From: Atractiella rhizophila
Taxonomy: Eukaryota
Length of the DNA stretch: 64,000 nt
Assembly: GCA_021432655.1 (NCBI GenBank)
Contig: MU271186.1
Span: forward strand, 124,001 to 188,000
Direction: 5' to 3'
Below the pieces are notes generated by a model, which saw nothing but the letters and a program-made list of their open reading frames with translations, was not told the DNA's origin and made no database searches. Positions within the stretch are counted from its first letter, which is position 1. Each line of letters starts with the position of its first letter. The position numbers were made by a program, and so were the translations under genes. Shown here piece after piece: positions 761 through 61,603 of this stretch.

Positions 761-2562
761 CTAATAGCTCGGAGGCCGTGTCGGTCGTGCAGGCTCGTAA
801 GGATTTGGCCAGGTCCTAGTAGAAACATAGGATGAAGGAGTTCCTCCAACACCCAAAGTGGCCTGAGATCCTTGTCTCTCCTGATGGGCTTGAGATGGAT
901 CTCGAGAGGAAATATGTGAAGGAAGACCGGGAAGGGTGGCGTCGCGTCCATGGCCGTCCATCGAGGCTGGCGGCTCGCCAGGAGGAGCAGAATAATGGCT
1001 ATCTGCACTATAGACGGAAGAGCGAGTATCCTCTTGTCTCTCCTTATCCCTCATAGCTCCCCCTCCAACCAGTGCTGCTGATACACCGCCTGGTGGCGGT
1101 GGTGGCGCCACCGAAGACGGAATCGAAGGAGGAGTACCGGGATTACTAGACTTGGGGAGAGCCGCGATCTGCTCGTAGGGATTGGCGACGGGAATAGTGG
1201 GGGCTCGGGAAGGGGCTAGAGAGGGAGCTTGAGGAGGAGATCGAGTTCCAGGAGGCGGAGGACCATAAGGAGTGTAGTAGTTAGAACCAGGGGGTCCAGG
1301 AGGGGGAGCGTAAGCGCCAGCATAACCGTTAGGCATTCCCGGAACCTGTGGACGAGGCATGGGAGGGGGAGGGCCTTGCGCTTGACCGTCGTACATTGAC
1401 CTGAACGGTTCTCGAGAGCTGGCGGTGCTGCCTGACTGCTGTCTCCGTGGACTCGGTTGGGCAGCGTATGGATCATACGGCGCCTGATTCCCATATCCTC
1501 TCGATGGGCTCTGGTTGGGTCTTCCAGCATTCGGACCCCGACCGTATCCCATCCCGACACCCGACACCCTCTCCTCGTCATCCGACTCCCTCATCGCAGT
1601 CAGAGGGACCTGTTCGGCATTGTTCCCATACTCCGCAAAAGCAGGCAGGTCCTTCCCATTCTTACTCTTGCTCCTTCCGAAGCTGTTTCCGAAATTGGGG
1701 ACGTAACCCGTGTTGGCTCGAGCCTTTTCAGCCGCAATGGCGTCCTGTCGCATGTTTGAAGCGAAGGCGGGATCCATGCTTGGCTTCCACTTTTCGTGTT
1801 CGGGATTTCGGTTCGAACGTTGACGAATACAACATCTCCCGCACCCGAAGAAGCAACCGGAGAGGGAGAGGAGGATGGCGGCTGTGAGGGTGAGCCAGAT
1901 GGCGTTCCCAAGCTGCGCGTTGACCGTGGTGCTGTCTCCTGTGTCCGAACTATTGATTCGGGACTTGGCGATGGAGAAGGTGATGATGTCGAAGATGAAA
2001 GCTAGCCAGGCGAAGGACGCGGCGAAGGATGCGAAGCAGGTCGTGAAGCAGGTGCCGGAAAACTCCCTGATTAAAGAAAGCAATCCTAAAATGGACGCAA
2101 TTCCGCCGAACGCAGCGGCAACGGGATGAATCACCAAAGCGTACGTGAGACCCTTGATGAGAGCTTGGCGACAACGGATCAGACCGGGAAGGCAGCCAAA
2201 TCACAACTACTCACAATTAGGAATTCCACCTAATGCATCTTTTGCGAGTCCCCCTATATTCAGGAGTGAATCCGCATCTGTGCAAACAAATCGTCTCAAT
2301 CTCCAAAGTTTCTGCTTCGAGGTAAGAAGAACGCACCCAGATCATAACCGAGTTTAGCTTTTGAGCAAGATCCAGCGATGCAAAGTCCCCAAGTGCCTAG
2401 TGTAATGTCTCCTCCGGTACTGAACTGTTGAATCGTAACAGTCAAGTTCGCCTTTAAGAAAAAGACAGATTTGATGATTGGGACGGAGAGAGAAACGACG
2501 ACGAGAAGGGCCGTGCCAACAAGAACGACCAGCGTTCCCGGGAAATTTGGGGAAATCGCCAT
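761..2562 (-). CDS. palI: SUR7/PalI (Rim9) family membrane protein with long Pro-rich C-terminal tail; 3 exons
   Basis: Exon 1 MAISPNFPGTLVVLVGTALLVVVSLSVPIIKSVFFL...ITLGTWGLCIAGSCSKAKLGYDL carries the G-x-W-G-x-C...C motif. Later exons give LTYALVIHPVAAAF and AQLGNAIWLTLTAAILL followed by a Pro/Ser-rich tail (ORF 761..2137). GT-AG introns near 2339-2280 and 2213-2164. Confidence 0.85.
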
Positions 2563-3537
2563 GAATCGAGGAAGCGAGAATTGGTCGTGAACAGGGGAAC
2601 GTTAGCGCTGGTCAGTTCAGTGCACTATTACTCAGTGTTACCTGGCAGTAATGGGCAATGGGATAAGACTCACCTTGATGGTGGTACAGTCAAGAAGCAC
2701 TGCTTTTTGTGTTCTGTGGCAGGTGGTTGCTGGTTTCGGATGGTTTGATGCAAGAATCACTCACCCCTGGCCCGCGCGTAAATTCGGCCTGTCCGCCGGA
2801 CCAGCTGCGCAATTTGTTGCTTCCGTGTTTCAGGTACGTACGTTCGCCTTTGTTTATATCAGACAAAGACGGCAGCGTGATTAAGACAGGCGACCATCTC
2901 AAACTGCCATCTCAGGATCTGAGGTATCATTCAAGCTTTCGAAGGTGAGCCTATTTGATTTGATACTCACGATTTGTGATTCTGATTCATTGAGATTCGC
3001 AGTGTATTGTCCAGAACTCAATTCAATTCGACGACGTTGGTCTTTGGTCGACAGTGCTTTGCGGTTGCCGTCCGTTCATGACTGCTTAACGCAGTAAGGC
3101 TGGATTGAAGCACCATGGCCACGTCAAGGAGGGGAACAGCTCCGCGTTACTACTACTGCAATGGGTGCAAGGTTCTTCCACCTTTCTAACATCTCGTGGA
3201 CAAGCTCGTTGATGGGACAATCTTGTCCAGATCGAATTCGAGACCTCAATGGATTGGAATAGGCATTGCGTCAGCATTGAAGATAACAGGGAGCTGCAGG
3301 TAACGCTCTTTCTTCCTAATCTACGTGCTGATTATCAAAGGAATATAGGAAGGACTGGGCGCGCTCCCTGATGGGACTGTAAGCTTCCCTTTGTCCTTCA
3401 GTCTTTACCAATTTTGAGGTACTCTTTCTTGGTAGATCCCTTCGCTCATTTGCCCCCAAAAAATCGATTCTGTCGAATTTTGGGTGGAGCGTCAGCGTTC
3501 TATTCTATCCAGTTTGCTCCAGCTGAGTGCGGAGTGA

Positions 3538-4959
3538 ATGTTAGATGCTTATCAGACTCGCACCAACATCAGTGAAAGTTTGATCGACGTATACACCGGA
3601 GAAGTCGTCCAAACTGCAACAGGAGCCCGCCAACTCTTCTGCTTCTATTGTCAACGAAACTTTGGCGGAGCAATCGAGTTTTCTCGACATTTGAAGACCG
3701 TGCCACACGAAGTCGTCTCCGTACAGAGCTCTTTTTTCTTCATCACTTCTCCAATGACCATGAACCAATCTACAGGTTCGTCCATATGACAACGGCTTTA
3801 CCTGCCCAGAACGAATCCGCGAACTTCAAATCCAGCACGGGCTGTCAGTCTCACCTCTATTTCCTCATTTAAGTCAGCTGAACGAAGGAATAGGGACCCT
3901 GATCCTCCACGTCCTCGATCAGTCTCAGTGCCTCAAACCGCCAGCCGAAACGATGACCAGCAGAGCGCACCAAGCAATCCTCCTCGTCCACGAACGCCGT
4001 ACACCAGATCTGATCAAGGTCAAGCTCCATGCCCCAATCCTCCGCGTGCGCGAACCCCATTCGCTAGAGACGATGAAGACCCGAGCTCGCGACGTTCGCA
4101 CGCCGATCCTCCGCGTTCGCGGACGCCGTTCGCTCGAGATGATGAGGATGAAGGTCCACGAGTTGTTCCACGCCGTTCACGAACGCAGTACGCTCGGGAG
4201 AGGAGCAGGAGCAGGAGCAGAGGCAGAGTATCTTATGAGGCAGAAGAACGAATCAGGGGAATGCAGTCTCCTAATCCTGCAGAAGGACAGGGGAGAGCGT
4301 TTCCCACCCCTGGTGCAGAAGAGCGAGGCAGAACGTATCCAGTTCCTCGTGCAGGCGGCAGGACATATCCCGTTCCCCGTGCGGCAGAGGGTACAACGTA
4401 TCAAGTTCCTCCTCTTGCTGAAGAACGAGCCAGAACGGCTTCCGTTCCCCTTGCAGGAGGCAGAACATATACTGTCCCTCTTGCGGAAGAGCTTGGCAGA
4501 ACATATCCCATTCCTCCTCCAGAAGAGCTAAGGCGGCCATTCTATCCTGCCCGTGCATCGACCTCCTTTGAGGGAGAAGAGTGGAGGAGAGCGAATTCTC
4601 CTCCTCAAACGTCTTCTTCCTACACCACGCCCGGTAATCCACCGTTCCCTTCTGCACCGCAAGCGTCCGCTCCCTACACCACAATGGGAAATCCACCGTA
4701 CTCCTCTTTTCCACAGGCTTCTTCTTACACCACTATGGGGAATCCACCGTACTCCACTGCACCTCAAGCGTCCGCTTCCTACACCACAACGAGGAACTCA
4801 CCTCACCCCTCTGCGCCTCAAGCGTCCGCTCCCTACACCACAATGGGAAATCCACCGTACTCCTCTTTTCCACAAGCGTCTTTCCGCATCTGTGCCAACA
4901 AATCGTCTCAATCTCCAAAGCTTCTCCTTCAAGATAAGAAGAACGCACCAAGATCGTAA
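3538..4959 (+). pseudogene. Orphan zinc-finger / Pro-repeat / coiled-coil gene A, copy 1, truncated at the duplication junction
   Basis: Exons MLDAYQ...FCFYCQRNFGGAIEFSRHLKTVPHEVVS | VRPYDNGFTCPERIRELQIQHGL | DPDPPRPR... At 4883 the ORF runs into antisense PalI intron sequence and lacks the coiled-coil end present in the other copies. Confidence 0.6.
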
Positions 4960-5174
4960 CCGAGTTTGGCTTTTGAGCAAGATCCAGCGATGCAAAGTCC
5001 CCAAGTGCCTAGTGTAATGTCTCCTCCGGTACTGAACTGTTGAATCGTGACTGTCAAGTTCGCCTTTAGGAAAAAGACAGATTTGATGATTGGGACGGAG
5101 AGAGAGACGACGACGAGAAGGGCCGTGCCAACAAGAACGACCAGCGTTCCCGGGAAATTTGGGGAAATCGCCAT
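4883..5174 (-). pseudogene. 5' fragment (exon 1 plus intron 1) of the PalI-family gene
   Basis: ORF 4929..5174 encodes the same exon 1 peptide; downstream exons are absent past the junction at 4883. Confidence 0.85.
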
Positions 5175-6147
5175 GAATCGAGAAGCGAGAAATTGGTCGT
5201 GAACAGGTAACGTTAGGGCTGGTCAGTTCAGTGCACTGATACCCAGTGTTAGCTGGCAGTAGTGGGCAGTAGGGATAAAGGATAAGACTCACCTTGATGG
5301 TGGTACAGTCAAGAAGCACTGCTTTTTGTGTTCTGTGGCAGGGTGGTTGCTGGTTTCGGATGGTTTGATGCAAGAATCACTCACCCCTGCCCGCGCGTAA
5401 ATTCGGCCTGTCCGCCGGACCAGCTGCGTAATTTGTTGCTTCCGTGTTTCAGGTACGTACGTTCGCCTTTGTTGTCAGACAAAGACGGCAGCGTGATTAA
5501 GACAGGCGACCATCTCAAACTGCCATCCCAGGTTCAGGCATTATTCAAGCTTCGAAGGTGCGCCTACTTGATTGGATATCCACAATGTAATTCTGAGTTG
5601 TTGAGATTCGCAGTGGATCGTCGAGAACTCACTTCAGTTCGACAACGTTGGTCCTTGGTCGAAAGTGCTTTACGGTTGCCGTCCGTTCATGACTGGTTAA
5701 CGCAGTAAGGCTGGATTGAAGCACCATGGCCACGTCAAGGCGGGGAACCGCTCCACGTTACTACTACTGCAACGGGTGCAAGGTTCTTCCAGTTTCCTAA
5801 CCTCCCGTGGACAAGCTCGTTGATGGGACAATCTTGTCCAGATCGAATTCGAGACCTCAATGGATTGGAATAGGCATTGTGTCAGCATTGAAGATAACAG
5901 GGAGCTGCAGGTAACGCTCTTTCTTCCTAATCTACGTGCTGATTGTCAAGGGAATATAGGAAGGACTCGGCGCGCTCCCTGATGGAACTGTAAGCTTCCC
6001 TTTGTCCTTCAATCTTGACGAATATGAGGTGCTCTTTCTTGGTAGATCCCTTCGCTCATTTGCCCCCAAAAAATAGATTCTGTCGAATTTTGGGTGGAGC
6101 GTCAGCGTTCTATTCGGTCGAGTTTGCCGTAGCTGAGTGCGGAGTGA

Positions 6148-7887
6148 ATGTTAGATGCCTATCAGACTCGCACCAACATCAGTGAAAGTCTGATCGACGT
6201 ATACACCGGAGAAGTCGTCCAAACTGCAACAGGAGCCCGCCAACTCTTCTGCTTCTATTGTCAACGAAACTTTGGCGGAGCAATCGAGTTTTCTCGACAT
6301 TTGAAGACCGTGCCACACGAAGTCGTCTCTGTACAGAGCTCTTTTTTCTTCATCACTTATCCAATGACCATGAACCAATCTACAGGTTCGTCCATATGAC
6401 AACGGCTTTACCTGCCCAGAACGAATCCGCGAACTTCAAATCCAGCACGGGCTGTCAGTCTCACCTCGATTTCCTCATTTAAGTCAGCTGAACGAGGGAA
6501 TAGGGACCCTGATCCTCCTGCACGTCCTCGATCAGTACCAGCACCTCAAGCCGCCAGCCGAAATGATGACCAGCAGAGCGCACAAAGCAATCCTCCTCGT
6601 CCACGAACGCCATACACCAGATCCGATCAAGATCAGGCTCCACGCGCCAATCCTCCCCGTGCGCGAACCCCATTCGCTAGAGACGATGAAGACCCGAGCT
6701 CGCGACGTTCGCACGCCAATCCTCCGCGTTCGCGAACGCCGTTTGCTCGAGATGATGAAGATGAGGGCCCACGAGTTGTTCCACGTCGTTCACGGACGCC
6801 GTATGCTCGGGGAAGAAGCAGGAGCAGGAGCAGGAGCAGAGGCAGAGTATCTTATGAGGCGGAAGAACGGATCAGGGGAATGCAGTCTCCCAATCCTGCA
6901 GAAGGACAGGGGAGAGCGTTTCCCACCCCTGGTGCAGAAGAGCGAGGTAGAACGTATCCAGTTCCTCGTGCTGGAGGCAGAACCTATCCCGTTCCCCGTG
7001 CGGCAGAGGGTACAACGTATCAAGTTCCTCCTCTTGCTGAAGAACGAGCCAGAACGGCTTCCGTTCCTCTTGCAGGAGGCAGAACATATACTGTTCCTCT
7101 TGCGGAAGAGCTTGGCAGAACATATCCCATCCCTCCTCCAGAAGAGCTAAGGAGGCCATTCTATCCTGCCCGTGCATCGACCTCCTTTGAGGGTGAAGAG
7201 TGGAGGAGAGCGAATTCTCCTCCTCAATCGTCCTCTTCCTACACCACGCCCGGTAATCCACCGTTCCCTTCTGCACCGCAAGCGTCCGCTCCCTACACCA
7301 CAATAGGAAATCCACCGTACTCCTCTTTTCCACAGGCTTCTTCTTACACCACAATGGGGAATCCACCGTACTCCACTGCACCTCCAGGGTCCGCTTCCTA
7401 CGCCACAATGGGAAATCCACCGTACTCCTCTTTTCCACAAGCGTCTTCGTACGCCATGAGGGGGAATCCACCGTACTCCTCTGCACCTCAGGCTACCGCT
7501 GCCTACACCACTACTCCACCTCATTGGCAAGATACGACAATGCCTGAGTTCAGGGGTGGTTTGGGCGACGATGAAGACCCACGTCTTCACGCGCTCAGGG
7601 GGCACATGATTCAGATAACGAACAGTCTATTGAAACTTGAAGGAGACCTGATCCATTTGACTGAACAGGTGCAAAAATTCCAACAAGAGAGAAGAGAGAA
7701 GGAGAGCATTCGGGATGACCTGTTGAGAAAGCTTCAAAATGCTGGTATGAGAAACGGGTCCGTCTTTCTGTCGATTTGTGCAAGATGTCTCGGTTGTTTG
7801 TTGTCTTCTTTGCATGGTTTCTTTCAAACGTTCCATGACCCCTGTCCTAGTATGAGACAAAGCCATTTTGCTCTCAGTCCGTCATAA
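6148..7887 (+). CDS. Orphan zinc-finger / Pro-repeat / coiled-coil gene A, copy 2 (3' end uncertain)
   Basis: Same spliced structure as copy 1. Contains GRTYPVP and YTTMGNPPYSSFPQASS repeats and the heptad-like LHALRGHMIQITNSLLKLEGDLIHLTEQVQKFQQERREKE. Lacks 4 nt (gtgt) that give the stop after AGMRV in copy 3. Confidence 0.6.
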
Positions 7888-8693
7888 TTATTTGTGCTGA
7901 TCACAAAAATTTGAGCATTAAACTCTTAACTTGAACAGAAGCCGGAGACCCTACAGATGGTACTCAATTCAACTCTCGTAACTGGGTCCAGACTCTGCTG
8001 CCTTCACATGCACTGCTTACATTTAACTTTACTTCGCGTTCAGACAGAAGTGACAGCAATAAGCCAAATCTGGTGGAAACATCCGATACACAATCAATAA
8101 AAGGGCTAGCCTGTATCTGTTCAGCCCATTTTCCCAAGGCTTCCCTACATCAAAGCAGATTGAAGGCCGCAATTTTCAGTAACAAATACACATCAGGCTG
8201 CCATATTCTCCACTCTTCGCCTTTTTGGGCTGATGCTCAAGGTTATGGTAAAGCTTATCAAGGGTCTATAAAGTTCGGGAAGGGAAACTGCCAGATCTGG
8301 GTGTCAGGGCACAAGTGCTTATCGTACCTTTTACTGATTTTCATGAAAGTTCGAGGGACAGAGCGCAGGACATAGCGCGATCACAGACAGTACAAAGGGA
8401 AGCACGGGCTCCTATTGCACCATTTACCACCCTCTCAAGCCACTCAAGCTTTTTTGTCCCTAGCCCTTGTGCTGTAACATCTCTTCAGATATTAGATGGT
8501 GCGTTGTTGTAGATAAGAAGTGCAGACTCTGATGTGTTTTCATAATGGGTACAGCGCCATTGTCGAGCTGTCGTCCTGCACTTCGTTTAGAGACTGCCTG
8601 TATAATCTACCATCGTCGGTTCTCTCATCCCCTTCCTCTTAATGATATTTACGAAGTCGCTTCTAGCACACAGGCCACCTATACATCATAACT

Positions 8694-9765
8694 ATGGTGC
8701 AACCACCTGCTATATGGAGGCTTTCGGAATGCGATCCAAGGGACGATGAATCGAGCCCTTACTCGACGATCACCTCGGTATTGCATGCACTGCGATACTC
8801 AGGTAGCAGTCTGATCTTTCAAGTGAAAACCAACTAATGATAAGGCAGTTTACCGCTACTGCTGTCTATGAGAGGCACAAACTCGACATTCCTGATGAGA
8901 ACAAGAGAGTCCGTTGTTCAATATCGTTATTTGGTAAAATGTCGCTGAGGTTTTCATTCCAGACACAACTCGGGGGAGCGACAAAAACATGTCCAGAACG
9001 TCTCGCGTCAACAGGTACGTTCTCACCGTACACTTCTCAAACACCTCACCTCATGATTGGTCACGCCAAGGTTACTGGATGGGGGCACGTCTTTGGGTAT
9101 AATTTATATTCCCTATTTCTAATGATTGGAATGGGGTAGTCGCCGAAGAAACCTACAGACATCAAGATGATCGAGTGTTACTTGGGCAAGAGCATTCCCA
9201 CCTCTGTCTGGTGCCACAACCCCACTCGCTGCGCGTCAGTCACTGTCCTTCGCTTCCACTGCAGAATAAATCTGACTGACTTGAATAGCTTTGAATGTCA
9301 TTGGTGTCCTGGTAAACGTGTTTAAATTATTGGATACTTGATTCTGATAAAGCTATCTAGGACAATGGTTCAATCCGAAGGATTTCAGCTCTCCCACTCA
9401 TTTAGTTGACCTAGTACAAATGTTAAGCAACGATCCAATCAGGGTTGCAAGATTTCGGGTATGATGTGCCTTGTGAGCATAAAATGAATCAATGAGCCTG
9501 ACACAGGAACTGCTCAATGACAAAGACGTCAAACACATCTGCAAAATGTTGTATGATAAAACGGTGAAGATTTTAGATGCGTTCGTGTTCTTCCCTCGTG
9601 TTGTTTTATGACGACTGAGGAGGCGACAGAGAGCTGGTGAGAGGAAGAGTGAGGGTGCAGAGGGAAGTTGAAGAAGCGCGAGCAAGAGCTGCTGCTGCTG
9701 CAAATGCCACACAGACACCAGCAGAGACACGAGCAGCAGCACCTGTACCAACACCTGCTCCATTG
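8694..9765 (+). pseudogene. Orphan gene B, partial copy with a 2-bp deletion, ending at the scaffold gap
   Basis: Near-identical to 14567-15639, but gaatcgagccc replaces gaatcgaaagccc (frameshift in exon 1). Confidence 0.55.
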
Positions 9766-9790
9766 NNNNNNNNNNNNNNNNNNNNNNNNN
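9766..9790. other. Assembly gap (25 N)
   Basis: Run of n characters. Confidence 1.
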
Positions 9791-12695
9791 CGTAAGGGGA
9801 CTAAGCAAGAAGGCGGAGTATTCTATGAGACGGAGACGAGGACGAGGACGAGGAGAGGGCTCGCATGACGCAAGCACTTGCCGCACCTTGTTGAGCACCT
9901 GGGAGTAGGAGTAGTAGAGCTCGCTTGCCGCAAGCGCTTGCGCCTCCTAGCCGCACGCTTGCAGCGCTCGAGCCCAGAAGTAGCAGAGATCGCTTACCCC
10001 AAGCGCGTGCGCCTCCTAACCCCGTACCTCGAACTGGAACTAGTCTAGACCACATGCCGCAAGCACCTGCTCCTCCTAACGAACCACGCGAGACGACCAG
10101 TAGCAAAGCCGACCGCCAAACTCCGTGACTCTGACTAGCTCCTGCACCTCCTAGTCCCAGGGATAAGGAAGCAAGTCGACTGAATTTACTCCTTTATCTC
10201 CACTCTGACTGTCGGGCACGACCTAAACTTCAAGCGCCTAAGCAAGACCCGTCCATTTCGGCAACAGTATACCTGCTTGGACATCTAACCAAGTACCAGT
10301 AACCTATTCACTACTTCTTTTTTCTCGAGACATGTCTCTGCTGAAGCACACCGTGCCAGAAGTTTACAGCTCTTTTGAGCTAACGAGGCGGTTTCAAAGC
10401 AACTGTTATCTTCGTCTTCTCAACCGCCCGAGGACAACGTCAAACCTGCTGAAGAGGCCACATATGCAGCTAGTTTGAAAGTGACTACAACCACGCTCAG
10501 ACTATTCGTAGATTGTAAGTGAGGCGTGAGTCGATGTCGTTTGACCTGCTTATCTTGCGACTGCGAGGTGGGTTTTAAGCTGTCTTAGATAAAAAACCCC
10601 CGTTTACTCGCTTCCCCTAGATGGTTCTTTCTCGTGGAGTTTAAGCACTTCTAACTTCCTGTTTCCCTTCGAATGTCAAGGTAGTCCCTCGCGCGGGTCA
10701 GGAAGGATATAAGGGAACTGTTAGTCGTGCATCTAATCCTTCTTTCTCGCAATGGACGTCGAGGGACAATAGAAGTTACGACTGCGTTACGGATAAGGTT
10801 AGGTAACTCCAGAGCTTAAGCTAGACCTGTTCTAACAGGGTAGTTGCTCGAACAGGTGCTCTCCAATCTTTTGACCTTCTTGGAACGTGGGTAACGTCAT
10901 CATCATTGCGCCTCGCCAAGGGGAGGAACTGCACCGGTACCACGAAGTTAGGTCGGAATGACGCAATTCGTCAGTACTTGCCTGCCGTTGGCGTTTCGTG
11001 AAAGCTGGTTCCTGGTTGCAACAGCTTGACTTCACTCAAGAGCTGCTAGGTGACGCTTAGAGTTGTTGAGTCTTAGTGTTTAGCACCCTATAGGTTTAGT
11101 TCATCCGAGTGGAAGCTTTCGAACTTATTATGGAGTTGGACTCTACCGTCAAACTCTACCAGCGGACAGAATTAGTGCGACGGCAGAAACAGACTATTTG
11201 TTTCCGCTTGCATGCATGGACTTTGTGCCTTCGTTGTTTAACGCGTCGACCAGGCCGCCTGTCCGGCTTAAATGCGCGCCCGGTCCCCACTCACTAAGAA
11301 CGTAGTTTGGTAGGCTTTGGTCGTTGGTGGGACGGTGTCTTGTGTTTTTCGTCACGAAGAACTGACATGGTGGTAGTTCCACTCAGAATAGGAAATAGGG
11401 ATGACGGGTGATGACGGTCGATTGTGACCCATAGTCACGTGACTTGACTGGTCGGGATTGCAAGTGGACAAGTGTTGGTTAAAGAGCGAAGAGCTAAGTA
11501 CCGCTAAAGGGGTTTAAAGGGCCCTTGCGACCAGCAAGAACAACCGTGCCGGGAAGAGCAGCAGCAAGAGAGAGAGGCAGGGTTAGTAGTTTAGACAGAA
11601 AAGGATTTCCGCTTGAACTGTCAGTGCTAAGTTGTCAAGTCATGGCCTCCTCTGTAATGTGATCCGTGAACCCCTGAAACGTAGCGACCTAGAACGAGTT
11701 TTCGATTTTGAGCCAATGCTAGAACCACGCAAGAAGAATGGAACTTCCTCTTTGAAACCTCTAACTCTGCTAAACAAACGTGTCTACGCCTAAGTGAGGA
11801 CTTATATCCCCCTGAGCGTTTTCTACGTAATCCACCTTAAGGATTAACACTCATCAACACTAAACCGACGGAAGGGCCAGACTAGGCAACAGCGGTTCGA
11901 GAGTAGTTCCCAGAGTGCATGCGAAACCACTAAGTAGGGCAACGGCGACGCAAGCCGCCTTAACGCAGGTAAAATCCTAACGAAAGAAATTAGTCCCTCA
12001 AAAGGCCGTGGACGAAGTGCTGGACGAAGCGTAGGAAGCGGCGCAGGAAGCGGACCGATCGAAAGTAGAAGCTGTAGTAGTGGAAGAGGTAGCGGTTCAG
12101 GGCTTAGTTATCAAGCCTGTGTCCTCTGTCGTGGTGCCAGTTGCGCGTCGAACCCTTGCGGTAGACCGAGTGGGAGTGTCGGCGGTAGGAGGAGAGGGAG
12201 AGGCCAACGAAAAAGCCCACGCCCTCTACAACATAAGCAGTTGCAAGCTTGGCTTTAGGGCTTGTGCTTTTCACCTTCGGTTCGTACCTAGGGCGGAAGC
12301 GAAGTTTGTACGCTGTCCTGCGGTAACGCCGACTTTTCCGAGCTCGGTTGTGCCCAATGCAGGGGGTTAAAGCCTTTGTCGAAGCCTTCCTCGTTCTCAT
12401 TCTTACCCTTCCTGGACGGACGAAAACGCCTCATACCCTTGTTACGGCTTTGTCCAGGGAGACTGACGCTACTCCCTCAGCCTACTGCTCCTCTCCCACA
12501 GCCCACAGCCCTACCCTATGCCAGCCCCAGGCTTACGACCTTCTGGGTTGGTCTCGGGTGGCTCTCCTATACCTTAGTCCGCGGCATACTAGGTATGCGA
12601 CGGGTTGGCTCAGGTGCCTCTGTCGTCAGTCCTTCGTGGCGGTCGAGAGCTCTTGGCAAGTCCAGTTACATGCTGCCAGTTCGCGTTCCGGGAGG
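9791..12695. repeat. Mirror (reversed, non-complemented) copy of 1368-4264
   Basis: 9791 cgtaaggggactaagcaagaag read backwards is gaagaacgaatcaggggaatgc (ending 4264). Reading backwards from 12695 gives ggagggccttgcgcttgaccgtcgtacattgacc (starting 1368). The match held at the internal positions checked. Confidence 0.97.
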
Positions 12696-13624
12696 AGTCT
12701 CCTAATCCTGCAGAAGGACAGGGGAGAGCGTTTCCCACCCCTGGTGCAGAAGAGCGAGGCAGAACGTATCCAGTTCCTCGTGCAGGCGGCAGGACATATC
12801 CCGTTCCCCGTGCGGCAGAGGGTACAACGTATCAAGTTCCTCCTCTTGCTGAAGAACGAGCCAGAACAGCTTCCGTTCCCCTTGCAGGAGGCAGAACATA
12901 CACTGTTCCTCTTGCGGAAGAGCTTGGCAGAACATATCCCATCCCTCCTCCAGAAGAGCTAAGGAGGCCATTCTATCCAACCCGTGCATCGACCCCCTTT
13001 GAGGGAGAAGAGTGGAGGAGAGCGAATTCTCCTCCTCAAACGCCCTCTTCCTACACCACGCCCGGAAATCCACCGTTCTCTTCTGCACCGCAAGCGTCCG
13101 CTCCCTACACCACAATGGGAAATCCACCGTACTCCTCTTTTCCACAGGCTTCTTCTTACACCACAATGGGGAATCCACCGTACTCCACTGCACCTCAAGC
13201 GTCCGCTTCCTACACCACAACGAGGAACTCACCTCACCCCTCTGCGCCTCAAGCGTCCGCTCCCTACACTACAATGGGAAATCCACCGAACTCCTCTTTT
13301 CCACAAGCGTCTTCTTACGCCACAACGGGGAATCCATCGTACTCCTCTGCACCCCAAGCCACCGCTTCCTACACCACGACTCCGCCTCATTGGCAAGATA
13401 CGACAATGCCTGATTTCAGGGCTGGTTTGAGCGACGATGAAGACCCACGTCTTCACGCGCTCAGGGGGCACATGATTCAGATAACGAACAGTCTATTGAA
13501 ACTTGAAGGAGACCTGATCCATTTGACTGAACAGGTGCAAAAATTCCAACAAGAGAGAAGAGAGAAGGAGAGCATTCGGGATGACCTGTTGAGAAAGCTT
13601 CAAAATGCTGGTATGAGAGTGTAA
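12696..13624 (+). CDS. Orphan gene A, copy 3, 3' part (5' exons lie inside the mirrored block)
   Basis: SPNPAEGQGRAFPTP...LLRKLQNAGMRV*. Un-reversing 9791-12695 restores the upstream exons in frame. Confidence 0.65.
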
Positions 13625-15639
13625 CGGGTGCGTCTTTCTGTCGATTTGTGCAAGATGTCTCGGCTGTTTGTTGTCTTCTTTGCATGGTTTCTTTCAAACG
13701 TTCTATGACCCCTGTCCTAGTATGAGACAAAGCCATTTTGCTCTCAGTCTGTCATAATTATTTGTGCTGATCACAAAATTTGAGCATTAAACTCTTAACG
13801 TGAACACAAGCCGGAGACCTACAGATGGTACTCAATTCAACTCTCGTAACTGGGTCCAGACTCTGCTGCCTTCACATGCATGCTTACAGTAACTTTACTT
13901 CGCGTTCAGACAGAAGTGACAGCAATAAGCCAAATTTGGTGGAAACATCCGATACACAATCGAAGAAAGGGCTAGCCGTATCGATATTCTGTTCAGCCCA
14001 CTTTTCCCAAGGCTTCCCTACATCAAAGCAGATTGAGGGCCGCAATTTTCAGCAACAAATACATATCAGGCTGCCATATTCTTCGCTCTTCGCCTTTTTG
14101 GGCTGATGCTCAAGGTTATGGTAAAGCTTACCAAGGGTCGATAAAGTTCGGGAAGGGAAACTGCCAGATCTGGGTGTCAGGGCACAAGTGCTTATCGTAC
14201 CTTTCACTGATTTTCATGAAAGTTCGAGGGACAGAGCGCAGGACATAGCGCGATCACAGACAGTACAAAGGGAAGCACGGGCTCCTATTGCACCATTTAC
14301 CACCCTCTCAAGCCACTCAAGCTTTTTTGTCCCTAGCCCTTGTGCTGTAACATCTCTTCAGATATTAGATGGTGCGTTGTTGTAGATAAGAAGTGCAGAC
14401 TCTGATGTGTTTTCATAATGGGTACAGCGCCATTGTCGAGCTGTCGTCCTGCACTTCGTTTAGAGACTGCCTGTATAATCTACCATCGTCGGTTCTCTCA
14501 TCCCCTTCCTCTTAATGATATTTACGAAGTCGCTTCTAGCACACAGGCCACCTATACATCATAACTATGGTGCAACCACCTGCTATATGGAGGCTTTCGG
14601 AATGCGATCCAAGGGACGATGAATCGAAAGCCCTTACTCGACGATCACCTCGGTATTGCATGCACTGCGATACTCAGGTAGCACTCTGATCTTTCAAGTG
14701 ATAACCAACTAATGATAAGGCAGTTTACCGCTACTGCTGTCTATGAGAGGCACAAACTCGACATTCCTGATGAGAACAAGAGAGTCCGTTGCTCAATATC
14801 GTTATTTGGTAAAATGTCGCTGAGGTTTTCGTTCCAGACACAACTCGGGGGAGCAACAAAAACATGTCCAGAACGTCTTGCGTCAACAGGTACGTTCTCA
14901 CCGTACACTTCTCAAACACCTCACCTCATGATTGGTCACGCCAAGGTTACTGGATGGGGGCACGTCTTTGGGTATAATTTATATTCCCTATTTCTAATCA
15001 TTGGAATGGGGTACACGCCGAAGAAACCTACAGACATCAAGATGATCGAGTGTTACTTGGGCATGAGCATTCCCACCTCTGTCTGGTGCCACAACTCCAC
15101 TCGTTGCGCGTCAGTCGCTGTCCTTCGCTTCCACTGCAGAATAAACCTGACTGACTTGAATAGCTTTGAATGTCATTGGTGTCCTGGTAAACGTGTTTGA
15201 ATTATTGGACACTTGATTCTGATAAAGCTATCTAGGACAATGGTTCAATCCGAAGGATTTCAGCTCTCCCACTCATTTGGTTGACCTAGTACAAATGTTA
15301 AGCAACGATCCAATCAGGGTTGCAAGATTTCGGGTATGATGTGCCTTGTGAGCATAAAATGAATCATTGACCTGACACAGGAACTGCTCAATGACAAAGA
15401 CGTCAAACACATCTGCAAAAAGTTGTATGATAAAACGGTGAAGATTTTAGATGCGTTCGTGTTCTTCCCTCGTGTTGTTTTATGGCGACTGACGAGGCGA
15501 CAGAGAGCTGGTCAGAGGAAGAGCGAGGGTGCAGAGGGAAGCCGAAGAAGCGCGAGCAAGAGCTGCTGCTGCTGCAAATGCCACACAGACACCAGCAGAG
15601 ACACGAGCAGCAGCACCTGTACCAACACCTGCTCCATTG
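12696..15639. repeat. Direct-orientation copy of the gene A 3' half and the downstream region (matches 4265-4882 and 6884-9765)
   Basis: agtctcctaatcctgcagaagg at 12696 equals 4265. The downstream ORFs recur (8315/14188, 8837/14712) up to acacctgctccattg. Confidence 0.95.
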
Positions 15640-16314
15640 TCAGGCTCAGCTCCAGCGGCGGCTCGTGGGCGACCCCCAACCGTCCGCCCTCTAGGAAGAT
15701 ATCAACCTCCTCCTGCTCACATTTACAACCAACCGTCCCAGGGTCGCCGTTTCAACTACTCTCCTCCTCCGCCCCCACGACCTCATGTCTTTGACCAGCC
15801 TAACCCCGCTCGTCAATTCAACTACACGCCTCCGCCGCCACCTCGTCCCCATGTTTTCAGCCAGACGTACCCCTCACGCCAGTTCAACTACACTCCTCCC
15901 CCACCGCCTCGGCTTCCCCGTCGTCACACTCCATATCAACCACGTTCCGCTTCTCCCACTGCTGACCGCGATCGTCGCCCACACTCGTCCCGACCCACAA
16001 ATCATCCTGGGAGTCACCGGGATCGTAGTCCTCGCCCGTATGCAGGCATTCCTCGACCTCCGACATCCAGTCGAAATCACATCCCTCAAACGCAAACAGG
16101 GCCTATACCTCCACCGCCTTCTCGGACGCACCGACCAGCGGGGAGTGGGAACAGCGTGGATTGTCTGCAAGGGATACACAATACTCTCTTCAACATCCGC
16201 ATGAACAATCTAGGTCGCCATGCCTCAATCCGAGATCTCGAGCGAGCCAATAATGAAAAGAGAGATCGCATTGCAACTATGAGAGAAATGATACGGGGAC
16301 TACGACGTTCGTAA
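14567..16314 (+). CDS. Orphan zinc-finger / Pro-repeat / coiled-coil gene B (middle exons unresolved)
   Basis: Exons MVQPPAIW...RYCMHCDTQ | FTATAVYERHKLDIPDENKR | TQLGGATKTCPERLAST. The last exon has three RQFNYTPPPPPRPHVF-like repeats and IRDLERANNEKRDRIATMREMIRGLRRS*. Confidence 0.6.
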
Positions 16315-16662
16315 ATGAAACTGCATGGATTTGTAAATACTGTAGTCTGTACATAGGACATCATCACGATACACGAAAGTCCAGCTGTTCCTTGCCGAAG
16401 AAACAATCTATTATTGATGTCTAAGCGTTTGTCTCAGCTGCAGTCTTAAAGGCAGTCCGTACCGCAGCCCACCTTTGGATTTGTTTTGGCAACTCTCAGT
16501 TCGTTCTGAAATATGCCTCGAATTCTAACAAACAGATCGACTTCCTAAGGATGAAGAGATTAACTCAAGGTCAAACGAGCAATAAATCAGTCGATGTTTA
16601 AGGAGCAAAAGGGCGTTCGAGGCCTCTCCCCTCAGAGTAGTCCACTTGCACCCTCGTAAACC

Positions 16663-17761
16663 ATGTCGCACAACGCTGAATGTCCTGACTGTGGTAACTC
16701 CTTTTCTAGCTCTGCTTCCTTCCAGCAGCATGAGGTGGACGTTTCCAATGAGAGTATAAATTTCCGTGTAATGCTACTTGCCTTCATTGGTTTGGAGTTG
16801 ACGTTGGAGTAGATGATTTGTAAATTAGTGTTTCCGTCGCATCGCGTTTGCCCACGAAAGAAGGACCTGGTGAAGTGGCTTATCGCACATGTAAAGGATT
16901 TTGTTTCTTTTTACATGATTGAGTTCAGATTCATTTTGAAACCAGACCGAGACGAGCAACAATATCATCACGAAGGAGGAACGATTGTCAAGCGCAATTC
17001 ATAGCGTACAGCTTCCAATTTTCGCAGACAGGGACGATGCTACCAAGGGGTAGGTAACTTGCTACTTAGATCAATACTAGTAGCAGGACTAACGACAAGA
17101 TGTTCCAGCATCAAGTGCCGGGATTGCCAACAGACATTTCAGCTAAGTTTACCGTATTGTAATCATGGTACGAAGCCTTTATCCTCCACTGCAACAAGGG
17201 CTAAGTTCATCCCAGCCAAGAAGATTCCTGATGATCAGGTAAACATTCAAGACAAATACGGAATCGTCTGATTAGACATGGCAGCGTTATCTATTTGACC
17301 GGAACGTGACGAGAATCTGCCCCCTGACATTACAACGGGTAACAGAATCTGCCGCTTACGCAGGTCACGCTCCACGGAGGGCGAATACGATGAACGACTT
17401 CCCTCCTCGCCCTGCTAATAACCAACCTAATAACAACTTCCCTCCTCGCCCTCCTAACAACCAACCTAATAACAACTTCCCTCCTCGCCCTCCTAATAAC
17501 CAACCTAATAACAACATGTGGAACGATACGCCTCGCGAGGCACCTGATAATCAGGCTGAGAACATGCGAAACTTCTACATGGCCACCCTTCCTGACCATT
17601 TGAGAAGAGAGATCGATGAAGTCATCAAGGAAGCTTACGAGCTTATCAGAGACAAGGCAGAACTGGACAGACTCGCCTCACAGGAACATCAAAACCTGCA
17701 GGCGATGGATCAGGAAATTGAAAATCTCGAGCGTATCATCTCAGATATGCAGGGTAGATAA
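16663..17761 (+). CDS. Orphan zinc-finger / Pro-Asn-repeat / coiled-coil gene C (splice sites tentative)
   Basis: ATG at 16663 gives MSHNAECPDCGNSFSSSASFQQHE, followed by a probable exon FPSHRVCPRK. The last exon has three FPPRPPNNQPNNN-like repeats and the coiled coil LQAMDQEIENLERIISDMQGR*. Confidence 0.5.
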
Positions 17762-18625
17762 GTTCAATGTCGACAAAGGTTTCTCCCTCTGCTGTATTTG
17801 TAGAATGAACATGTAACAACTCGAAATAGTCAGAAAGCCTTCTTTCAAGAAGAATGATATCCTGTCAACTAATGTCTGAAATCTAGTCAGCATGGCTGGG
17901 GCTTGAAGCTTTAGCTTTGGTTCAGTGCGGTCCGCACTGCAGCTGTCATCTACTAGTTGTGTCGAAATGTGTTCGTAAATGTGTAGAATAACGTCGTGCA
18001 CTTCTTTTGCAGATGGAGGAGCACTCACTGCAATCAATAACACAGGAAGAAATTATCACCAGCTTCCTATCTAGGGAACGATATCTTTCTCATCAGAAGG
18101 CCATAGCTCCTCACCCGAGTAGGATTCGAGTGGGCGAATTGGGAGAAGGCTGAGAACTGTGAAGACAGTGATGACGAAGGTAGAAGTGTACGACGGTTGT
18201 TTTTATCGAAGTCAGCGAACTTCACTTCAAGTTGAAAGTTACCACTGGCCATCCCTACTCGGAAGTTCTGCGTCACGTAACATCAGCACCACATAGTATC
18301 CATATCAGATTTCGATCCTTACCGCACTGTTTAGCGTGCCTTTGCATTGATGCTCAGTACGCTCACTAGATCGCGCGCTTGGAAGTTGGTTTGCAGGTAC
18401 ATGTACACCAGACCTGATCTGCCTGATCAATGAGGTCCCCGAGCTTTTTTTCTTCGGGTTGTCACCACCTTTCATACTTTCAGATAAGCAGTTAATTGCA
18501 GGCTAATAGACGAATGTGGTGACAGAAACACGTATTGTAGGTTGGAGAATAGATAATCTGGATGTCAAATAAGACGAAAGAAAAATGCAAACACAGATGG
18601 TAATCCCAGCCTACATCGTTGATGT

Positions 18626-20450
18626 TTAGACTGGGCTGGAAGAAAGGGGGTTAGGCATGTAAGGGATCTTCCTCCCTATACCAAGAATCCTCATTGGGTC
18701 TTCTCCCGGTCCAATGGAAGAAGGGATGCCCAGGACATGCCTATCAAGTCCAAAGGTCGGAGGGGGCGGTGTCTGAAGAAGAGACGTATCGTCCGTCGAG
18801 GGTTGAGCGAGGATGAAGGAGCGGGTTCGATGTGACCCCGTGTGCATGTGTAAGGAAGGAGAAGAATCATCGAGGGCCTCTGGCATTTCCGGAGGAGAAG
18901 AATCGCCTGGGGGCAGTAGTCTTTTCCGGCCAGGATTGCGAAAGGATTGGCTTGGTCGAGGGGTCGAACTGGGAAGGAGCAGTCCTCGATTGCCGCCTCG
19001 ATCTGAGGAAATTTCGACCCCTTCGTCCTCTGTTCTTGCTGCAGGAGAAGACTGATCCTCCAGCAGCTGAGGGTCGATTTGCAGCGATGTTGAGGGGTGG
19101 TCAAGGATAAGAGGCGATCTGAGAGGCGATTCATTGTCGTCGTGATCGTCGTACGGCCATTCATTCAGAGGAGAATGCCTAGAAGAGACGGAAGTGCGCT
19201 TGCGTTTGTTTCCCGCTGTGACCACTCTTTTCCCACCGCTACTGCTCCCGCTCGCAGTCTGGACACTGATCCCACTATCAATGTTCGACAGACGTTTCGG
19301 GATCCTGGTAGACGCGCGAGACGCCTTCTTCCTCGCCTGTGGCACTGGACCAGCCTCCGAACTAAGGCCAAACAACACCGCAGCTGCCTCCGTCTCCTCG
19401 TGGCTGTGATGACGAGAGGTTGGACGTGAGTTTGCAGGAACCCCGTCAGAGTGCTTCTGGCTGCTACCGTAATGATCATGCTCATAAGTCGCGGTAGGGG
19501 ACAATAAGTCGTCAACATAAGTCTCGTCCTCGAATTCAACTTCGTTCACGGCTTGAAGTTTCTTCTTCCTCTCCCGATTCTCCCGCGCCCAACGTCGCTT
19601 CGATTCCAAAGTACGCTCTCGTCGTTCTTCCGCTGTTGATGGCCGATTAGGATCTAACAAAAATAAGTTGGATTCTAGCATCATAAAGAAAAAGCCATAC
19701 TATTATCCCATCGGGTTTTTCTTGCTTGACTGTTGAGAGGAATGCTGTGTTTCTCTGCAAGATGCCCTGATAAACCATCCCTGTCAGCTTTCTGATAGAT
19801 CCGCAGATGGGCAAAGAGGAAACAAACTCTTGTAGATGCTTCGAGCGTTTCGTCCCTTGTAGCACTTGTCGCAATACTCGCACTGCATTTCCACGATGAT
19901 ATTCGTTTTCGGCGATTTAGCGACTCGGTAACGAGAGGAACCTATCATAATAACGATCTCATCAGCAACCTTCCTTCGAATATTCACACAAAGGGTAAGC
20001 AATGTATTTATTATGGATGACACGGAAACAAGGAAGGAGCCAGAGAACCGAAAATACTGTAGTCAGGAACGCGCAACTATAACGAGGCACCTCAACCGTC
20101 CGTGAGAACTCAATATCAGCGATAGTGCTCGTGATGCAGCATGTTGCCATCCTTCCCTCGTTGTAAACTCACTCATGAGACGGAAACAGATCATAGAAGT
20201 CACAACAACAACCGCCACCAGGATCTCAAACAAGGGACGCACCATGTATTTCGTTCAGATCAGCACCATAGCTATCATTCGACAGATCTCTCTGTCCTCC
20301 ACCGATAGTAAGTCCCGCTCTCCTCCTCCTGGTCTGGGTCACCGCCGTAGCTGTTGGTTGTTCCATCCTCAGACTTTCATGTTTCTCCGGGATCATTTCG
20401 TCAGGCTGCTGGTCGTATTCGGACTCCCAGAAGAGAACTGGTGGGTCCAT
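18626..20450 (-). CDS. C2H2 zinc-finger protein, probable transcription factor (5' exons tentative)
   Basis: Spliced CEYCDKCYKGRNARSIYKR|HLAEKHSIPLNSQARKTRWD, then a basic helix EERRERTLESKRRWARENRERKKK and a long Ser/Pro-rich tail. Confidence 0.7.
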
Positions 20451-22255: not shown

Positions 22256-22297
22256 TTTGGAGTGTTGCTGAAGCTCTGGCTAATAATGCCCGCTTCC

Positions 22298-38347: not shown

Positions 38348-38763
38348 TGTTGGGGCTGACACTATGTGCGGTCGCCGACAGGCGATGCGTCTGTAGTGGA
38401 GATAAACCTAAGAGCATGATATGACATGAAGACTAACCTGTAGTGGAGATAAACCTAAGAGAATACTCTAAGGTCACCTCCACTACTCTCTGATCTATAT
38501 ATACAAGTGGAATAACACTGCCACAAAGCGTAGAGGAGAGCAGATGAAACATGTAAGAGAACTAAAAGGGGAAGTGACAGTGGGATTACGCGGAGTTAAT
38601 AAGAGGAGGATAGGCACAATTGGGCTAAGTGGTGATGTAGGTGCAAATGGGCGATGGGAGACGTAGAGTGGCGACGGGCGCCGATTCGCAGGGAACGCAA
38701 ATGGGCGAAAGGAGACGCAATCCGGCGAACGGGCACCGATTTGCGTAAGATGCAAACCTGACA
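38348..38763 (+). mobile_element. Solo LTR 1 (416 bp); strand is relative to LTR 2
   Basis: TGTTGGGG...CCTGACA termini with 5-bp TSD AGTAT on both sides. Internal direct repeat ctgtagtggagataaacctaagag occurs twice. Confidence 0.88.
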
Positions 38764-39181: not shown

Positions 39182-39669
39182 TGTCAGGCTTGCCCCTACG
39201 CATTACCGAAATGCACCATCCAAGGTCACGTGACCCACCTTACCGTGTCATGAGATCACGTACCTACCCATCGCCGCTCTGCACATGTCTGCGCTGTTCA
39301 CCGCTTTTCTATTTCTCACACGAATCGCCACTCAGCAAACCTTATACATTTCGCCAGTCTGCACCGTCTCCATTTTCGCCTTATTGTCCTTTCTCACTAG
39401 TACTACCCAGTATATCTTATTTCCGAGTATTCCCTTTATTACTTTCCTGATCTAACTATCTTACACATTTCAAGCAACGTATGTTACAGTTTATGGCAGT
39501 GCCTTTACTTATGTATATATACATCGAGGTAGTGGTGGTGACCTCAGAGTATTCTCTTAGGTTTACCTCCACTACAGGTTAGTCTTCTCATGCCATACTA
39601 TTCACTTAGGTTTACCTCCACTACAAACACATTGCCCATCGGCGACCGCACATAGTGTTTGCCCTAACA
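39182..39669 (-). mobile_element. Solo LTR 2 (488 bp), same family as LTR 1, opposite orientation
   Basis: TGTCAGG...CCCTAACA termini with 5-bp TSD GATGG on both sides. The reverse complement aligns with LTR 1. Removing it rejoins transposase sequence SEEM-DTEDGERLDSDVEITR. Confidence 0.9.
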
Positions 39670-61200: not shown

Positions 61201-61377
61201 GGGGATTAGAATCATGGGATTCTTACCTGTGGTGAGACCATTGAAGAAGCAACAGGCTGGTTCATTGGATTGGAGAGAGCTTGTCAGGCGGAACTGCTTG
61301 CAAGAGCTGCAGGAGAACCCATACTCATTAGTGACGAAGAAGCTGAATTTACGAAGAAAACGACAGGGACTGCTCAA
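58095..61377. repeat. Direct tandem duplication of ~1.64 kb (58095-59733 and 59734-61377)
   Basis: agagggagaggaaatggtagaggggg occurs at 58095 and 59734; agggactgctcaa ends both units. Confidence 0.95.
58712..59790 (+). pseudogene. Class II aldolase/adducin copy 1, 3'-truncated chimera
   Basis: Matches copy 2 up to TTGTAQ, then reads RGRGNGRGGYGRRRRDSI* from the duplicated neighbouring gene in a shifted frame. Confidence 0.75.
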
Positions 61378-61603
61378 GGAGTGTGGTTTTGGGTACGCTT
61401 TTACTCCTATAGGAAATCTGACGCTGATGACGCTGCTGCAGGCTCAACCCGTACGTCCTCATTGTGTTTCCTTCTAGCGAAGACTGACCAAACTGCGAAT
61501 TTAAGTACTTTACGGTAATGGTGAGTTGCATGTCCACGCTCCTCTAGCTTTGTACTCATGTCTTTCTTAGGATCGCGAATCCAAGGGCGAATACAAGGAA
61601 TAA
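60357..61603 (+). CDS. Class II aldolase/adducin-domain protein, complete copy
   Basis: FAKLGFDE|GVAGHLTLRDP, FWVNPFGVPF, NRAAFAIHSRIHMARPDVHAACHSHS, ALILQ|NHGILTCG, ending DRESKGEYKE*. Confidence 0.92.

What the first reader, a model, noticed from the sequence alone, without database searches (positions are those of the whole stretch)
3538..17761. Tandem family of three orphan genes: C-x2-C-x12-H-x~19-C-P finger + unrelated Pro repeats + coiled coil
Seen only after splicing by eye. A: CFYC-QRNFGGAIEFSR-H-LKTVPHEVVS|VRPYDNGFT-CPER. B: CMHC-DTQFTATAVYER-H-KLDIPDENKR|TQLGGATKT-CPER. A and B have identical spacing, a shared TCPER motif and a phase-0 intron at the same codon. C: CPDC-GNSFSSSASFQQ-H...HRV-CPRK (tentative splice). 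Each then has a different tandem repeat and a C-terminal heptad helix. All are on the + strand, adjacent, and repeatedly duplicated. Inference: an old, fast-diverging lineage-specific cluster with an unusual C2HC finger. Function is unknown; a modular adaptor or allorecognition/defence role is only a guess. Best candidate here for an undescribed system.
Basis: partly seen in the sequence, partly recalled or inferred. Interest (0 to 1): 0.75.

Follow-up and report, generated by a model that had tools for sequence, protein, structure and literature searches.

The report
Three fungal variant zinc-finger genes
A root-dwelling fungus has three neighbouring, related genes whose proteins carry an unusual form of zinc finger, a floppy middle and a coiled tail; they have no known counterparts and their job is untested, and their apparent extra copies are most likely an assembly artefact.

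Summary
The three genes are real, but the finding needs correcting. Database proteins from this locus are labelled Atractiella rhizophila. RNA contigs join the His exon to the Cys-Pro exon in B and C; for A only an NCBI model does. All five fingers read C-x2-C-x12-H-x19/24/26-C-P on a beta-beta-alpha core. Of 132 profile hits, only the three own proteins carry the tail. The nearest known tail is LYAR finger 2, a weak lead. 'Repeatedly duplicated' is most likely haplotypes plus an assembly error: 9791-12695 is reversed without complementing. One run splices A's end into B's leader. Purifying selection argues against allorecognition. Best guess: RNA/RNP-binding oligomeric scaffolds (about 0.4); zinc binding by the late Cys is untested. 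The scan holds other orphan finger families from this genome, none matching this one.

The parts
761..2563 (-). SUR7/PalI-family gene, divergent upstream neighbour (not a family member)
   Evidence: PF06687 E 6.2e-11, over cut-off; 5' exon read
3115..4882 (+). Gene A, copy 1. Exons 3115-3171, 3231-3299, 3349-3378, 3436-3490, 3545-3720, 3776-3843, 3894 onward; cut off at 4882 in this assembly
   Evidence: Open frame; RNA run X10 carries the copy-1 letter at 12 of 12 listed sites 12868-13079 and has contigs through the coil exon
3491..3544 (+).
   Evidence: GT..AG, typical length, in-frame join; read unspliced, copy 2 has TAG where copy 1 has CAG; not RNA-tested
5726..7760 (+). Gene A, copy 2, about 570 aa: finger 1 (5768-6063, spacing 26), finger 2 (6250-6415, spacing 19), Arg/Pro- and RS-rich linker, 18-aa Tyr/Pro repeats, C-terminal heptads. 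Exons 5726-5782, 5842-5910, 5960-5989, 6046-6100, 6155-6330, 6386-6453, 6504 onward. A 4-nt deletion removes the stop seen in copy 3
   Evidence: NCBI model P0001 has the last two junctions
8694..9765 (+). Gene B, first copy, ends at the gap; a 2-nt deletion in exon 1 leaves a second ATG in frame (start of P0003)
9766..9790 (.). 25-base N gap
9791..12695 (.). Assembly artefact: copy of 1368-4264 written backwards without complementing; a mosaic of copies 1 and 2
   Evidence: 97.2% over 2914 columns to the reversed window; of 107 variable sites 55 match copy 1, 47 copy 2, 5 neither; three 1-base indels in PalI coding sequence
12696..13624 (+). Gene A, copy 3, 3' part of last exon with stop codon
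   Evidence: covered by contigs of X10 and X2
13628..14427 (+). 800-nt GT..AG intron from 3 nt behind A's stop into B's 5' leader (A-to-B readthrough splice)
   Evidence: One contig of one run (X10), depth 289, 29 letters on the short side; X3 reaches the same acceptor from an exon ending near 14370
14567..16314 (+). Gene B, second copy, 445 aa, 9 coding exons: finger (14657-14867, spacing 19), Cys-rich and helical segment with a second C-x2-C at about 15170-15185, 22-aa Pro repeats, C-terminal heptads. The acceptor of intron 4 reads AC in the window
   Evidence: All 8 coding introns follow from joints; open frame
16663..17761 (+). Gene C, 281 aa, 6 exons, single copy: finger 1 (16681-16851, spacing 24), finger 2 (17116-17320, spacing 19), 13-aa Asn/Pro repeats, C-terminal heptads
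   Evidence: All 5 introns in RNA contigs; open frame; NCBI model P0004 lacks exon 1

Best explanation
One locus, PalI <- -> A -> B -> C, holds three old paralogues that arose by tandem duplication of a two-finger gene. SHOWN: B and C are spliced and expressed; all three have a beta-beta-alpha finger core; the finger tail is shared and not found elsewhere in the searches run. INFERRED (about 0.85): the extra A and B copies are haplotypes and an assembly error. INFERRED (about 0.6): the invariant Cys of the C-P motif, 19-26 residues behind the His, is the fourth zinc ligand and has replaced the Cys that LYAR-type fingers carry 3 residues behind the His. INFERRED (about 0.4): the proteins work like LYAR/JAZ-type proteins. 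Widely spaced fingers grip RNA or an RNP, the Arg/Pro/Tyr/Asn-rich linker gives weak multivalent contacts under kinase control (RS and R-x-R-T-P motifs in A), and the coil makes dimers or oligomers. Part of B's mRNA comes from readthrough out of A, which couples their expression.
For: Splicing; open frames. Constraint: 11 synonymous, 0 replacement differences in 151 codons of A's finger region. Paralogy beyond the generic core: with cores masked, A-B and A-C are each reached by 1 of 1000 shuffles; gap-free finger alignment. C-P present behind 5 of 5 fingers. Tail H-x3-[IV]-[PSE]-[DENH]-[DEN] in 5 of 5 family fingers and 0 of 796 generic ones (motif defined from those five). The genome's own LYAR finger 2 has x12 spacing and a tail score reached by 6 of 796 generic fingers; LYAR is also a weak hit in Pfam (E 0.051) and PDB (E 0.55, profile positions 5-33). 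LYAR has two C2HC fingers, a low-complexity region and a coiled coil (PMC6232469, passages). Best Pfam hit of A finger 2 is the dsRNA-binding zf-C2H2_jaz (E 1.9e-4); top fold rows are JAZ and TUT1 fingers (Z 3.2, 3.1). A: 9 RS dipeptides, 4 R-x-R-[ST]-P. Readthrough transcripts are enriched at tandem duplicates in Agaricomycetes (PMC4503453).
Against: No test of zinc or RNA binding exists. The model leaves the late Cys unplaced (pLDDT 44 in residues 41-48). Fold scores of Z 2-3 are tied with DNA- and ubiquitin-binding fingers; Foldseek has no match at E <= 0.001. The LYAR core score is ordinary (483 of 796 generic fingers reach it), no intron position is shared with LYAR, and the proteins are Lys-poor (1-4%). 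A finger 2 has an alternative ligand (H-x5-H). Whole N-terminal A-B, A-C, B-C scores (79, 75, 56) are within or barely above the best scores against generic finger windows (68-83); B-C with cores masked is reached by 102 of 1000 shuffles; the three coils are not detectably homologous (115-559 of 1000). The A-to-B splice rests on one contig of one run, and contigs cannot show a single transcript.
Confidence: 0.4

Rival explanations
1. Protein-binding adaptors: the fingers bind a protein partner (as UBZ fingers bind ubiquitin or the EEA1 finger binds Rab5), the Pro repeats recruit SH3/WW-type proteins and the coil dimerises.
For: Weak Pfam hits of C finger 1 to zf_UBZ (E 0.015) and Zn-C2H2_12 (E 0.024); TAX1BP1 UBZ at Foldseek rank 3 (E 2.1); 9, 14 and 5 PxxP motifs in A, B, C.
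Against: All hits are below cut-off. The acidic residue two places behind the His that UBZ4 fingers use (recalled, not from a call) is absent in 5 of 5 fingers. No PPxY motif.
Confidence: 0.25
2. Sequence-specific DNA-binding transcription factors with two variant C2H2 fingers, an activation-type disordered region and a dimerising coil.
For: The core matches classical C2H2 fingers best by sequence (PDB profile hits; 129 generic hits).
Against: Fingers are 88-92 residues apart without TGEKP-type linkers; 4 of 5 lack a His or Cys 4-6 places behind the first His (A finger 2 is the exception); matches stop at about profile position 25.
Confidence: 0.17
3. Allorecognition or defence locus.
For: Lineage-restricted, clustered, several sequence versions in the assembly.
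Against: Copies differ by 3-7%, like neighbouring housekeeping DNA (4-6%); pN/pS 0-0.68 in seven regions; no defence or death domain in Pfam. One small contrary sign: A's coil has 3 replacement and 0 synonymous changes between copies 2 and 3.
Confidence: 0.06
4. The A and B copies are a real tandem segmental duplication on one chromosome rather than haplotypes.
For: Three distinguishable versions of A's last exon exist; copies 1 and 2 abut with no gap at 4882/4883.
Against: Eight other abutting near-identical pairs (88-100%) lie on the same contig; LYAR is present twice at 98.2%; some C2H2 loci appear on three contigs with equal scores; the truncated copy 1 is under purifying selection and matches an expressed allele.
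Confidence: 0.15
5. Transposon-derived proteins (gag knuckle or transposase cargo).
For: ESM feature hits to zinc-knuckle clusters at 0.80-0.83.
Against: Scores are under the tool's 0.9 bar; 5-8 introns per gene; no copy elsewhere in the genome; housekeeping neighbours.
Confidence: 0.03

Closest known systems
LYAR-type C2HC finger proteins (Pfam PF08790; PDB 6zmi chain CE)
   Same: Two N-terminal fingers, low-complexity middle, coiled coil (PMC6232469 passages). The genome's own LYAR finger 2 has C-x2-C-x12-H, an aromatic residue before the His and a similar I-[SP]-[ED] tail.
   Different: The Cys three places behind the His is missing in 5 of 5 fingers; fingers are far apart; no Lys-rich region; no shared intron; a true LYAR gene exists elsewhere in the genome.
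JAZ/ZNF346, U1C and matrin-type RNA-binding fingers (PF12171)
   Same: Widely spaced fingers, aromatic core, H-x5-H in A finger 2 (22.0 bits against cut-off 22.6; flagged over the cut-off at 22.8 with neighbours).
   Different: Only 1 of 5 fingers has H-x5-H; all carry the late C-P instead.
Classical C2H2 (PF00096) fingers
   Same: C-x2-C-x3-F-x5-hydrophobic-x2-H core and beta-beta-alpha model.
   Different: No second His at the usual place in 4 of 5, no TGEKP linker, below cut-off.
UBZ plus coiled-coil adaptors (TAX1BP1, NDP52)
   Same: C2HC-like finger combined with a coiled coil; weak hits.
   Different: Fingers are N-terminal, coil short and C-terminal; fourth-ligand spacing differs.
Polycistronic transcription units of Agaricomycetes (PMC4503453)
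   Same: Same-strand neighbours, stops between the frames, downstream gene also transcribed on its own, enrichment at tandem duplicates (passages and sections 9, 11 read).
   Different: That paper found them in four Agaricomycetes and not in Neurospora; here the host is outside that class, the link is a spliced 800-nt intron, and a full two-ORF transcript is not shown.

Membership tests
Classical C2H2 zinc finger (PF00096) | C-x2-4-C-x3-F-x5-hydrophobic-x2-H core | tested here: met
   5 of 5 fingers
Classical C2H2 zinc finger (PF00096) | Second His 3-5 residues behind the first | tested here: not met
   Present in 1 of 5 (A finger 2, H-x5-H); absent in 4
Classical C2H2 zinc finger (PF00096) | Pfam gathering score 25.2 | tested here: not met
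   Best 21.8 bits, C exon 1; P0003 and P0004 no hit; A finger 1 could be scanned only in exon pieces
LYAR-type C2HC (PF08790) | Fourth ligand Cys at H-x2-C | tested here: not met
   That position is S, T, D, D, K in the five fingers; C in the genome's own LYAR
LYAR-type C2HC (PF08790) | I-[ST]-E-type tail behind the ligands | tested here: inconclusive
   Own LYAR tail score reached by 6 of 796 generic fingers; comparison chosen after recalling the motif; Pfam E 0.051 only
LYAR-type C2HC (PF08790) | Lys-rich C-terminal region and nucleolar localisation | tested here: not met
   Lys 1.2, 3.4, 3.9%; localisation not testable
JAZ/U1-type dsRNA-binding finger (PF12171) | H-x5-H and gathering score 22.6 | tested here: inconclusive
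   A finger 2: 22.0-22.1 bits, 22.4/22.8; of the other four fingers none has H-x5-H
JAZ/U1-type dsRNA-binding finger (PF12171) | RNA binding | not testable with these tools
   Needs an assay
UBZ ubiquitin-binding finger | H-x3-C ligand spacing and conserved Asp in the helix (recalled) | tested here: not met
   0 of 5 fingers; zf_UBZ E 0.015, below cut-off
Beta-beta-alpha finger fold | Hairpin plus helix | tested here: met
   Model E3-5, E10-12, H15-24, mean pLDDT 63; nearly all 44 rows at Z >= 2 are such fingers
C2HC finger with distal Cys (proposed) | Late Cys coordinates the same zinc | tested here: inconclusive
   Invariant in 5 of 5 but unplaced in the model
Fungal polycistronic transcription unit | One transcript holding two complete ORFs | tested here: inconclusive
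   A-end to B-leader splice in 1 of 4 runs, 29 letters on the short side
Fungal allorecognition (het/vic) locus | Deeply diverged allele classes under diversifying selection (recalled) | tested here: not met
   only three versions and 40 of 102 RNA variants were available

The most novel reading that the evidence does not exclude
An operon-like, partly co-transcribed cluster defines a new zinc-finger subtype, derived from a LYAR-like finger, in which the fourth ligand has moved 19-26 residues downstream onto a Cys-Pro cap that starts a further conserved helix; A, B and C assemble through their coils into one RNA-binding complex specific to this fungal lineage.
Probability: 0.18. Interest if true: 0.65.

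Novelty: new variant of a known kind. Interest (0 to 1): 0.4.

Why it matters
If the late Cys is a ligand, this is a natural example of a beta-beta-alpha finger closing its zinc site across a 19-26-residue loop, which Pfam and gene annotators miss: none of the four NCBI models found here is complete. A spliced A-to-B readthrough would extend fungal polycistronic transcription beyond the Agaricomycetes in which PMC4503453 reported it. The locus also warns the scan that this assembly puts haplotypes in tandem and holds a block reversed without complementing, so apparent gene amplification here should be distrusted.

Tried and rejected
Structure of P0003 from the single sequence: pLDDT 32, unusable. 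Complex prediction of the A and B coils: no verdict, score 0.12 against mark 0.34; not used for or against binding. ESM Atlas: best feature scores 0.78 (P0003) and 0.87 (P0004 1-115), under the 0.9 bar; structure rows TM by query under 0.4. Metagenome scans: 0 relatives among 306 and 203 pattern matches; own-genome records may be left out there. Word-indexed protein searches gave only proteins of this organism: 1 of 19, 2 of 3, 1 of 34 candidates, weak evidence of absence. phmmer of C finger 2 against PDB: 2 chance hits. No further family member on 227,000 of 227,530 bases of contig C7 or among 51 distinct fingers in 83 loci elsewhere; intron-split members could be missed. Reading the upstream exons as a separate gene ending TGA directly before ATG 3538 (stop-start coupling or readthrough) was dropped: copy 2 has an earlier TAG in that frame and the 54-nt intron gives an in-frame join. 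In-frame readthrough from A into B was dropped: two more stops lie in the leader. The single replacement difference was my one-base coordinate error, corrected. No shared intron with LYAR. The wide fold search did not list LYAR, which excludes nothing. Literature: searches for Atractiella + genome, Atractiella + zinc finger (73), LYAR + C2HC (54), variant C2HC spacing (71) and lineage-specific Pucciniomycotina fingers (90) listed nothing on these genes; listings only were seen, as. No supplements were opened.
Full report
SETTING. The window is eukaryotic, on contig C7 of a 51.5 Mb, 1998-contig assembly. Database proteins encoded at this locus are named Atractiella rhizophila hypothetical proteins. 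The upstream neighbour is a SUR7/PalI gene on the minus strand; NPL4 and a WD40 gene lie further on.

GENE STRUCTURES. I laid four of ten listed runs on 12696-18400. Their contigs give 15 joints. X10's kind is not on record, but its GT..AG joints show RNA. The His-exon to Cys-Pro-exon junction of B (14783/14838) is in X10 and X3, that of C finger 1 (16767/16813) in X10 and X3; C's later junctions 17166/17215 and 17235/17282 are in three and two runs. Spliced accordingly, B is an open frame of 445 aa and C of 281 aa.

Support is indirect but strong: the 151 codons of the finger region differ between copies 1 and 2 by 11 synonymous and 0 replacement changes, 8 of them in the new exons, while the six introns differ at 24 of 324 positions (counted with a one-base offset in intron 4; 22 by eye). 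The stretch behind the first C-P aligns between A and C (CPQKIDSVEFWVE and CPRKKDLVKWLIA, each followed by His). One donor (GTTCTT, 3172) is unusual. B has one full finger and, 45 residues behind its C-P, a C-x2-C at about the place of finger 2 in A (43) and C (49); it lacks the His at +12 and scores E 0.16 to zf-C2H2_4. The ancestor was probably a two-finger gene (inference).

THE FINGER. All five read C-x2-C-x3-F-x5-aromatic-x2-H-x3-[IV]-[PSE]-[DENH]-[DEN]...C-P, His-to-Cys spacing 26, 19, 19, 24, 19. The core is ordinary: PDB and Pfam hits cover mainly its first 25 positions, all below cut-off (flags A finger 2 just over the PF12171 cut-off with neighbours), and AlphaFold gives a hairpin and helix at mean pLDDT 63 with the tail unresolved. 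The tail is particular. A profile search of 1.84 billion representatives gave 132 proteins; P0001, P0003 and P0004 reach the end of the profile, and the other 129 are mostly multi-finger proteins. Of 872 finger matches in those, 830 have His or Cys 3-5 residues on; 3 rows in 2 proteins have a late C-P and look unrelated by eye. The post-His motif is in 0 of 796 generic fingers (defined from the five, so descriptive). I recalled LYAR's tail from memory and tested it on the genome's own LYAR gene: its finger 2 has x12 spacing and a tail score reached by 6 of 796 generic fingers, but an ordinary core score and no shared intron. The family lacks LYAR's fourth Cys, so it is not a member; descent from such a finger is a lead. 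A finger 2 could instead close with H-x5-H.

PARALOGY. N-terminal scores A-B 79, A-C 75, B-C 56 beat 1000 of 1000 shuffles, but generic finger windows reach 68-83, so much of that is the core. With cores masked, A-B and A-C are reached by 1 of 1000 shuffles, B-C by 102. The coils have clear heptads but no detectable mutual homology. Adjacency, spacing and a phase-0 intron 8-12 codons behind the His in all five fingers add to the case.

THE DUPLICATIONS. 2271-4866 repeats at 4883-7482 (93.3%) and 6884-9765 at 12696-15639 (94.8%). 9791-12695, straight after a 25-base gap, is 1368-4264 written backwards without complementing (97.2%), which no biological process makes. Read backwards it is a mosaic: of 107 variable sites 55 follow copy 1, 47 copy 2, 5 neither. 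Contig C7 has 13 self-matches of 300 nt or more; 8 are other abutting pairs at 88-100%. Neighbouring housekeeping DNA has second copies at 94-96% on other contigs, LYAR is present twice at 98.2%, and some C2H2 loci appear three times. X10 carries the copy-1 letter at 13 of 17 comparable sites, 12 of 12 in 12868-13079, and has contigs through the coil exon, so the truncated copy matches an expressed allele (40 of 102 variants were shown). The locus is most likely single: PalI, A, B, C. A real segmental duplication is not excluded (about 0.15).

CO-TRANSCRIPTION. One X10 contig splices from 3 nt behind A's stop over 800 nt into B's leader (depth 289, short side 29 letters); X3 reaches the same acceptor from its own exon, and X10 also has unspliced sequence behind A. 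Stops separate the frames. This fits the readthrough units of PMC4503453 (passages and sections 9 and 11 read), which are enriched at tandem duplicates. A promoter inside A's last exon would look the same.

FUNCTION. No diversifying selection: pN/pS is 0 to 0.68 in seven regions; A's coil shows 3 replacement and 0 synonymous changes. Allorecognition is unsupported. Spaced fingers without TGEKP linkers, LYAR- and JAZ-like features, and Arg/RS/Tyr-rich linkers make RNA or RNP binding with coil-driven oligomerisation my best guess (0.4), ahead of protein adaptor (0.25) and transcription factor (0.17). Fold scores cannot separate these (Z 2-3, tied). All functional steps are inferred.

VERDICT. 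A real, expressed, lineage-restricted paralogue cluster with a variant finger; new variant of a known kind; interest 0.4. Earlier scan notes describe other orphan finger families in this genome and none like this sequence.

Noticed in passing
window 9791-12695: Block reversed without complementing, the only one on 227,000 bases of C7; it will mislead raw-sequence readers.
   Followed up: yes
window 58094-61381: Abutting 1.65 kb pair at 96.2% that duplicates parts of two genes, probably another haplotype pair.
   Followed up: partly
window 22292-24628: Abutting 1.2 kb pair at 76.6%, older than the haplotype pairs, with no frame over 101 codons; possibly a real duplication or an intron-rich gene.
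   Followed up: partly
window 18626-19900, minus strand: Gene convergent with C carries a C-x2-C exon near 19860-19880 that looks like another finger type; its 356-aa exon has no Pfam hit.
   Followed up: no
window 14946-14959: 14-nt micro-exon of B with a GC donor at 14960, used in two runs.
   Followed up: yes
window 7752-7760 and 8753: A 4-nt deletion removes A's stop in copy 2, and a 2-nt deletion changes which ATG starts B; alleles or assembly errors.
   Followed up: partly
window 38348-38527 and 39490-39669: 180-nt inverted repeat at 83.5%, about 1 kb apart.
   Followed up: no
window 43726-44363: 72.6% inverted match to C7:194406-195038, outside the window; probable paralogue.
   Followed up: no
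L037 and L038: The genome's LYAR gene, two copies at 98.2%; finger 2 has x12 spacing.
   Followed up: partly
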